Shown one piece after another: positions 56,241 through 56,720 of a stretch of 64,000 nt of DNA (within the stretch, counting starts at the first letter, position 1; each line of letters begins with the position of its first letter). Source of the DNA: Eledone cirrhosa (Eukaryota); the NCBI GenBank assembly GCA_964016885.1, contig OZ024757.1:18414001-18478000 (forward strand). Direction: 5' to 3'. Made by a program: the position numbers and the translations under genes. The notes under the pieces are model-generated. The model was not told the origin of the DNA and made no database searches. It saw only the letters and a program-made list of their open reading frames with translations.

Positions 56241-56398
56241 CATATATATATATAATGAGTTGACGGACCCAGCATATTTATCAATGCCAGGACCGGTTGT
56301 ATCTCAGCGTACTCAATAGGTCATGTAGGATACATTCCCAGAGTATACACAGAGTTATTCGCTTTAATACAACACACGTAAAACGGGTGCCTATAGTA

Positions 56399-56516
56399 GG
56401 TCCCGGACTCGAGTTTCGGCCACACTTAGTGCAGCAGTAGGGTGCACTGCACCCTCTGTCTGCATATATTATGCAACAATGCATAATCGGCGCATGTGGC
56501 TTCATCAGCGGGTACC
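56399..56516 (-). ncRNA. Type I hammerhead with palindromic stem III and branched ~84-nt stem II
   Basis: GGUaCCCG-CUGAUGA-aGCCACA...UGUGGCc-GAAA-CUCGAG-UC-CGGGACC. Confidence 0.82.
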
Positions 56517-56720
56517 GCCTAATCAATAACCAATCGATCGACAGAATCCAAACCCCAGCCCATGCCGGCTATGACTGTTTGTGACGGCCGACACAGTAAA
56601 GTGATTAGCAACTGGAATCTGATACAACTCTGTCCCCCGACCAGCCACCGATTTACAAACTTTACGTGGTGGCGGGAGATTAGAAAACAAATATTTTCGC
56701 TCCCGTCAAAAGCTCTCAGC

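What the first reader, a model, noticed from the sequence alone, without database searches (positions are those of the whole stretch)
56255..56720. GC-rich retrozyme-like unit with a branched stem II hammerhead
A ~460-bp non-coding island between (TA)n tracts. The hammerhead has a GUC site and a CUCGAG palindromic stem III. Its stem II is expanded into a multi-branch domain containing attatgca-ttgt-tgcataat and agggtgca-g-tgcaccct hairpins. An inserted structured domain of this size is atypical and might be regulatory or protein-binding.
Basis: partly seen in the sequence, partly recalled or inferred. Interest (0 to 1): 0.8.

Follow-up and report, generated by a model that had tools for sequence, protein, structure and literature searches.

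The report
Branched hammerhead in a parasitic retroelement
This is a shortened copy of an abundant non-coding jumping repeat whose predicted self-cutting RNA carries an unusually large branched arm that related copies have kept, likely because it helps the RNA fold into its cutting shape; cutting itself is untested.

Summary
The hammerhead, both hairpins and the cut site are real. The '460-bp unit' is not: it is the 3' 469 bp of an ~845-bp non-coding repeat with a fixed 3' end in (TA)n, variable 5' truncation and partial head-to-tail tandems (14 of 72 loci), the layout of non-autonomous Penelope-like elements. The branched helix II is family-wide (237 exact core-pattern hits with a long arm, 3 with a short one). 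Ribozyme plus arm is 90% identical between subfamilies that are 61-77% identical elsewhere, and shared changes keep RNA pairing. Long helix II is common here (4623 hits, 212 control), including Hydra-clade elements, the likely but unidentified helpers; this scan reported such long arms before on other DNA. New here: a true three-way junction, repeated in an unrelated family, and a predicted 4-5 bp pseudoknot from its junction strand to the helix I flank in three families. Against: that contact alone is not significant here (P=0.06), one subfamily weakens it, the active fold is disfavoured as a monomer, 5' ends do not pile up at the cut, and no RNA data exist. New variant of a known kind.

The parts
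56253..56721 (-). 5'-truncated copy (3' 469 bp) of an ~845-bp non-coding, non-autonomous Penelope-like repeat, subfamily A
   Evidence: 40 of 40 scored matches 93-100% identical, 3565 first-look candidates; other copies run on upstream; unit length from tandems
56522..56652 (-). long G.U-rich hairpin upstream of the ribozyme; its 3' arm is conserved in sequence
   Evidence: fold; A versus C: 48 of 51 pairs kept, 16 through changes; the 36 nt before the core 35 of 36 identical
56516..56519 (-). 5' flank GGCG, predicted pseudoknot partner of the junction strand
   Evidence: complementarity test; coordinates; inferred
56509..56512 (-). helix I, 5' strand (pairs with 56405-56402)
56502..56508 (-). 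hammerhead core CUGAUGA
   Evidence: identical in subfamilies A, B, C
56494..56501 (-). helix II base, 5' strand; first pair A.C, then 7 bp with 56425-56419
   Evidence: A in 67 of 73 and C in 68 of 73 aligned copies; A-U to G-C compensatory change in subfamily B
56488..56493 (-). single-stranded junction strand carrying CGCC
   Evidence: unpaired in folds; complementary to the flank
56468..56487 (-). branch hairpin A (8 bp, 4-nt loop)
   Evidence: 19 of 20 identical between A and C; the one change is A-U to G-U
56430..56464 (-). branch hairpin B; base conserved, tip variable
56418..56425 (-). helix II base, 3' strand
56406..56417 (-). GAAA, palindromic helix III (ACUCGAGU) and GUC triplet; predicted cut between 56406 and 56405
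   Evidence: GUA in subfamily C
56253..56264 (-). fixed 3' end of the element, running into (TA)n
   Evidence: 66 of 72 loci reach it, 57 of those 66 are followed by a TA run
56242..56254 (.). (TA)n tract at the 3' junction
56721..56748 (.). (TA)n tract at the 5' truncation junction
   Evidence: TA run at the 5' junction in 54 of 72 loci

Best explanation
This is a 5'-truncated copy of an ~845-bp non-coding repeat that likely moves with the enzymes of a Hydra-clade Penelope-like element, and its conserved branched hammerhead is predicted to cut tandem transcripts as a dimer, probably steadied by a short pseudoknot between the branch junction and the helix I flank. Shown: unit size, copy number, fixed 3' end, (TA)n targets, variable 5' truncation, partial tandems, an intact core, and conservation of the arm with pairing-preserving changes. 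Inferred: a tandem copy is transcribed; two ribozymes pair through the palindromic helix III; the junction strand docks on the flank as the helix I-II contact; the RNA (uncut multimer or re-joined circle) is reverse-transcribed from the fixed 3' end at a nicked (TA)n site, and early stops give copies like this one.
For: Layout. No long frame in the unit (longest stop-free stretch 95 codons). Intron-like donor and acceptor in the 5' half, kept in A, B and C; an intron in the 5' region is a Penelope trait (PMC8557442). Hydra link: autonomous elements with the CxCX5C linker end in a long-armed hammerhead followed by (TA)n; published Hydra hammerheads have AC..GU palindromic helix III, often a mismatch at the base of helix II, and (TA)n targets; 0 of 20 long Neptune/Penelope-type loci had a convincing long-armed hammerhead within 2.6 kb (one weak 36-nt match). 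Constraint: 125 of 139 identical between A and C over ribozyme plus flank, against 61-77% elsewhere; 5 of 5 shared single changes at Watson-Crick pairs keep pairing, against 64 of 290 private ones; sense strand folds better than antisense (z -6.35 against -3.07). Dimer: helix III costs +2.9 kcal/mol as a hairpin and gains -10.7 as a duplex. Pseudoknot: 4 or more Watson-Crick pairs in 15 of 26 cognate representatives, against 11% of 586 non-cognate pairings; present in A and C, in 6 of 6 of an unrelated family where it covaries (GAGC/GCUC and GAGU/ACUC), and in 4 of 5 of a second family with the same three-way junction.
Against: No autonomous element with DNA similarity was found among 30 + 20 Neptune/Penelope-type and 30 Hydra loci, so the helper is assigned by type only. 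In the full RNA the active fold lies 7-9 kcal/mol above the minimum and helix I has probability near 0 (pseudoknots and dimers are not modelled). A.C replaces the usual G-C first pair of helix II. Only 1 of 21 listed places had its 5' junction exactly at the cut. The pseudoknot is not significant for this family alone (shuffle P = 0.06), subfamily B keeps only 3 pairs with no compensation, the autonomous Hydra families do not show it clearly, the windows were chosen after seeing the data, and the representatives are related. 4 of 32 pairs of the arm are broken between A and C, all in the tip of hairpin B. Published PLE hammerheads cut poorly in vitro (PMC4209133), 8 of 9 frog retrozymes did not cut, and cleavage was not needed for insertion in vitro in one PLE (PMC11167929).
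Confidence: 0.6

Rival explanations
1. Same element, but the conserved region is a binding site for the helper's reverse transcriptase (RNA level) or an internal promoter (DNA level), and the hammerhead is slow or vestigial.
For: The 36 nt upstream and hairpin A are conserved in sequence, not only in pairing; A.C at the base of helix II; active fold disfavoured; no pile-up of 5' ends at the cut; Penelope repeats hold promoters; catalytic mutants still insert in vitro.
Against: The catalytic core is unchanged across subfamilies and the triplet changes only between cleavable forms, GUC and GUA; changes are G.U-preserving on the sense strand, which points to RNA. This rival does not exclude the best reading.
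Confidence: 0.25
2. It is a satellite-type non-LTR retrozyme that forms long arrays and amplifies through abundant circles, as in coral, mussel and axolotl.
For: Non-coding, type I hammerhead, GC under 50%, head-to-tail joints; copies longer than one unit need a circular or multimeric template.
Against: No locus among 72 showed two whole units; tandems are partial (upstream piece starting at unit position 459-826 among the 14 counted); the unit is twice the 170-400 nt reported (PMC7229834), though within the 51-972 bp of a later survey. The loci carried only 1.5-2.5 kb of flank and were picked by similarity.
Confidence: 0.1
3. The arm is neutral bulk: helix II tolerates any closed domain, and its conservation reflects recent common origin or gene conversion between subfamilies.
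For: Many unrelated long arms coexist in the genome; private mutation rates are the same in paired and unpaired positions, as expected after insertion; the tip of hairpin B drifts.
Against: Conservation stops sharply at the ribozyme's borders and skips the tip; only 3 short-armed copies, each a different single deletion; the same junction layout recurs in an unrelated family.
Confidence: 0.05

Closest known systems
Hammerheads of Hydra-clade Penelope-like elements (Craig et al. 2021, PMC8557442, section 11 and File S2)
   Same: Type I order, palindromic AC..GU helix III, frequent mismatch at the base of helix II, position near the 3' end, (TA)n targets.
   Different: Listed Hydra loop II is 3-10 nt; here helix II is an 84-nt three-way junction. 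The longest listed loops (29 and 35 nt) are in spike-moss PLE-X. This element encodes no protein.
Minimal PLE hammerheads (Cervera and De la Pena 2014, PMC4209133)
   Same: Long helix II base (7-8 bp), short helix I (4-5 bp), palindromic helix III, presumed dimer action; the A after CUGAUGA can be read as their extra nucleotide between 9 and 10.1.
   Different: They are described without helix I-II contacts and without branches; G10.1-C11.1 is highly conserved there, here A.C or a bulged register.
Metazoan non-LTR retrozymes (PMC7229834; bioRxiv 10.64898/2026.07.22.740005)
   Same: Non-coding, non-autonomous, type I hammerhead, head-to-tail joints, proposed origin from PLEs.
   Different: Mostly dispersed 5'-truncated copies and partial tandems rather than arrays; ~845-bp unit with an intron-like segment; no RNA or circle shown.
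Pseudoknotted hammerheads (Perreault et al. 2011, PMC3088659, section 7)
   Same: A Watson-Crick helix joining helices I and II, predicted in about 40% of their set and shown to raise the rate.
   Different: Here the partner strand lies in a junction or internal loop of an extended helix II, in an animal retroelement; untested.
Non-autonomous Chlamys elements such as MRC1 (PMC8557442)
   Same: Non-autonomous PLE derivatives with pseudo-LTRs and head-to-tail insertions.
   Different: Those share 3' ends with their helpers and mostly lack hammerheads; no such helper was found here.

Membership tests
Type I hammerhead ribozyme | Core CUGANGA, GAAA and NUH in type I order | tested here: met
   intact in 55 of 73 aligned copies (20 of the 73 were picked by an exact core pattern)
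Type I hammerhead ribozyme | Three helices closing the core | tested here: inconclusive
   All three can form; helix II probability 0.6-1.0, helix I near 0 in full context, helix III only as a dimer
Type I hammerhead ribozyme | G10.1-C11.1 first pair of helix II | tested here: not met
   A.C in most copies; natural mismatches are on record (U.U), and an alternative register with a bulge gives G-C
Type I hammerhead ribozyme | Self-cleavage at the NUH site | not testable with these tools
   Indirect test negative: 1 of 21 listed 5' junctions at the cut
Non-autonomous Penelope-like element | Partial head-to-tail tandems (pseudo-LTR), variable 5' truncation, fixed 3' end | tested here: met
Non-autonomous Penelope-like element | No RT or endonuclease coding | tested here: met
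Non-autonomous Penelope-like element | Terminal sequence shared with an autonomous PLE | tested here: inconclusive
   None among 80 endonuclease loci compared, a small sample of 10,596 and 57,995 first-look candidates
Hydra clade | CxCX5C linker, endonuclease without CCHH, RT motifs | not testable with these tools
   The element has no ORF; such elements are abundant in the genome
Hydra clade | (TA)n insertion and standard-order hammerhead near the 3' end | tested here: met
   compared with File S1 and S2. Not unique to the clade.
Non-LTR retrozyme | Two or more consecutive whole units with hammerheads | tested here: not met
   Only partial tandems in 72 loci; a few hold two hammerheads; no whole-genome count
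Non-LTR retrozyme | Linear and circular monomer RNAs | not testable with these tools
   No RNA run listed

The most novel reading that the evidence does not exclude
An unrecognised structural subclass of animal hammerheads in which helix II is a large scaffold (three-way junction or internal loop) that presents a Watson-Crick pseudoknot to the helix I flank; with the palindromic helix III it makes a switch that cuts only tandem transcripts and releases ~845-nt circles, and it has been kept in several unrelated parasite families of Hydra-clade retroelements that standard searches miss.
Probability: 0.3. Interest if true: 0.65.

Novelty: new variant of a known kind. Interest (0 to 1): 0.42.

Why it matters
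What hammerheads do for Penelope-like elements is an open question, and the animal ones are described as minimal, slow and without helix I-II contacts. A family that keeps a large arm over about 25% divergence gives a direct test: natural variants with and without the predicted contact, and compensatory pairs from sister families. Thousands of such motifs escape Rfam and short-loop descriptors (a 7-17 nt spacer in one relaxed search of PMC8557442), so counts of genomic ribozymes are likely too low.

Tried and rejected
Rfam at gathering thresholds: 0 matches in the window. Coding potential: no Pfam match in 3 frames; no similarity to PLE proteins. Helper search by DNA: none in 80 endonuclease loci. 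Short-armed ancestor: 3 hits, all single deletion copies. Pile-up of 5' ends at the cut: not seen in the first 100 of 422 rows, 21 places. Expression: no RNA holder listed; this says nothing either way. A second organism's contigs cover the ribozyme region at low depth; not used as evidence of function. The longer helix I of the window copy rests on two near-private changes (2 exact hits in the genome), so it is not a family trait. Naiad origin: considered because of the 'HHR_half_core' label; dropped because the core here is in standard order and matches Hydra features; three helix III motifs and the 3' end motif were not found in that supplement (line breaks can hide matches). The paper on dimer cleavage of small PLE hammerheads (Lunse et al. 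2017) is not held; I rely on a review's passage.

Full report
Observation. On the minus strand the island holds a type I hammerhead: CUGAUGA at 56508-56502, then 84 nt, then GAAAC-UCGA-GUC at 56417-56406. The 84 nt fold as a 7-bp base helix, a 6-nt single strand, hairpin A and hairpin B (z = -3.47, 1 of 200 shuffles as good). The 469 nt fold at z = -6.04. GC is 47.9%. Rfam finds nothing in the window. The first pair of helix II is A.C; helix III is the palindrome ACUCGAGU.

What the island is. A DNA search of the window's genome gave 3565 candidates; all 40 scored were 93-100% identical over most of the query. Other copies run on upstream of the window's 5' end, and head-to-tail joints give a unit of about 845 bp (a joint of 846 also in a public run). 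Of 72 non-redundant loci of subfamilies A and B, 66 reach the same 3' end, 57 of these 66 run into a TA tract, 54 of 72 have a TA run at the 5' junction, and 14 of 72 are partial tandems with the upstream piece starting anywhere from unit position 459 to 826 (8 duplicate loci were dropped; loci were picked by similarity). The unit has no frame over 95 codons, no Pfam match in the 3 frames tested, and an intron-like segment of 91-100 nt in its 5' half with donor and acceptor kept in three subfamilies. Partial tandems, 5' truncation, a 5' intron and microsatellite targets are traits of Penelope-like elements (PMC8557442, passages). The window copy is therefore a 5'-truncated non-autonomous PLE-like element.

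The arm is a family trait under constraint. The exact core pattern occurs 237 times with a 60-90 nt spacer and 3 times with 8-40 nt, controls 0; the 3 are separate deletions. Subfamily B shows an A-U to G-C change in the helix II base. Among 28 variants shared by many copies in unit positions 430-800, 18 fall on paired sites: 11 of 12 single changes keep pairing (5 of 5 at Watson-Crick pairs, 6 of 7 at G.U pairs, where a transition always keeps it), and 3 pairs changed on both sides (2 compensatory, 1 to U.U; permutation P = 0.026). Private mutations at Watson-Crick pairs keep pairing in 64 of 290 cases. An older subfamily C is 71%, 61% and 77% identical to A in the 5' half, the middle and the 3' tail, but 125 of 139 identical over the ribozyme and the 36 nt before it, and 110 of 115 without the tip of hairpin B. 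The triplet is GUA in C. Of 32 pairs in the arm, 24 are unchanged, 4 kept by one-sided change and 4 broken, all in the tip. RNAalifold on 8 copies returns the three-way junction (covariation term -1.01, 4 of 44 pairs with double changes). The structure was predicted from subfamily A, which favours it somewhat.

Context in the genome. Generic patterns give 2214 hits against 61 controls for 30-59 nt spacers and 4623 against 212 for 60-90 nt (only the first 100 of each were listed, 30 of each fetched). They fall into many families, most with long irregular hairpins, palindromic helix III and often U.U or A.C at the base of helix II. Autonomous elements with the Hydra CxCX5C linker carry such long-armed hammerheads in their 3' UTR and end in (TA)n. 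Published Hydra hammerheads have the same helix III type and mismatch but loops of 3-10 nt; the longest loops in that table are 29 and 35 nt (PMC8557442, File S2). Twenty long Neptune/Penelope-type loci showed no convincing long-armed hammerhead. None of 80 endonuclease loci resembled this unit in DNA, so a Hydra helper is an inference by type. A second non-autonomous family of about 600 bp, unrelated in sequence, has the same three-way junction.

Mechanism. Helix III is unstable as a hairpin (+2.9 kcal/mol) and stable as a duplex (-10.7), which fits the dimer model for PLE hammerheads (PMC4209133, parts 1-2 of 4; PMC6765202, passages). The junction strand (CGCC) is complementary to the flank 5' of helix I (GGCG) in A and C. 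The same contact appears in the sister three-way family (UGGGC/GCCCA, 4 of 5 representatives with 4 or more pairs) and in an internal-loop family, where it covaries (6 of 6). Over 26 representatives, 15 have 4 or more Watson-Crick pairs, against 11% of 586 non-cognate pairings. Such helix I-II pseudoknots raise hammerhead rates (PMC3088659, section 7). I read the arm as a scaffold for this contact; this is inferred, not shown.

Against. The contact is not significant for this family alone (P = 0.06), drops to 3 pairs in B, is unclear in the autonomous Hydra families, and was defined after the fact on related sequences. In full context the active fold lies 7-9 kcal/mol above the minimum. 5' junctions do not pile up at the cut (1 of 21 places). 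No RNA run was listed. Sequence-level conservation of hairpin A and the upstream 36 nt also fits a protein-binding site or promoter. PLE hammerheads are slow in vitro, 8 of 9 frog retrozymes did not cut (bioRxiv 10.64898/2026.07.22.740005, parts 1-3 of 5), and cleavage was dispensable for insertion in vitro (PMC11167929, passages).

Literature. Seven full-text searches returned no paper whose title or abstract opening describes a PLE hammerhead with a branched helix II; I read only the parts named above and passages of PMC7229834, PMC6155905 and PMC10085705. Lunse et al. 2017 is not held, subscription papers and Repbase were not searchable, and the alignment supplements of PMC4209133 and the preprint were not seen; any of these may list long arms. 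Earlier notes of this scan describe long-armed Hydra hammerheads on other DNA of this genome (seen after my own); none matched this sequence.

Verdict. Real, and a new variant of a known kind: a non-autonomous PLE-like element with a conserved three-way-junction hammerhead and a testable pseudoknot. Interest 0.42.

Noticed in passing
window 56749-56945: A second hammerhead-bearing repeat directly beside the finding, with an inverted duplication; minimal core at 56879 (minus), U.U at the base of helix II; relatives at about 48122-48380 and 59907-60016.
   Followed up: partly
window 63742-63775: A compact type I hammerhead on the plus strand near the end of another repeat followed by a microsatellite.
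   Followed up: no
window 1175, 26527, 26680, 38465, 50709; 10185 and 10310: Further hammerhead-like cores of two other families, some as inverted pairs.
   Followed up: no
L115-L143 (for example L132, L133, L126, L136): A non-autonomous family of about 680 bp in tandems and inverted pairs, with an internal-loop helix II, amplified subfamilies with A.C at the helix base, and the best covariation for the flank pseudoknot.
   Followed up: partly
L223, L254-L256, L021:2970, L203: A family of about 600 bp in (TA)n with the same three-way-junction hammerhead, unrelated in sequence.
   Followed up: partly
L144-L173, L213, L217: Abundant Hydra-clade PLEs (57,995 first-look candidates) with long-armed hammerheads in the 3' UTR.
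   Followed up: partly
L259-L278, L064-L093: Neptune-type elements here mostly show no standard-order hammerhead within 1.2-2.6 kb after the endonuclease; they may carry another form or end further away.
   Followed up: no
window 56540-56533: A second palindrome (UCGAUCGA) upstream of the ribozyme, inside the stretch conserved between subfamilies.
   Followed up: no
window 24399-26173 and 46063-47001: A 22-bp tandem array of about 81 copies and a 231-bp array of 4 copies.
   Followed up: no
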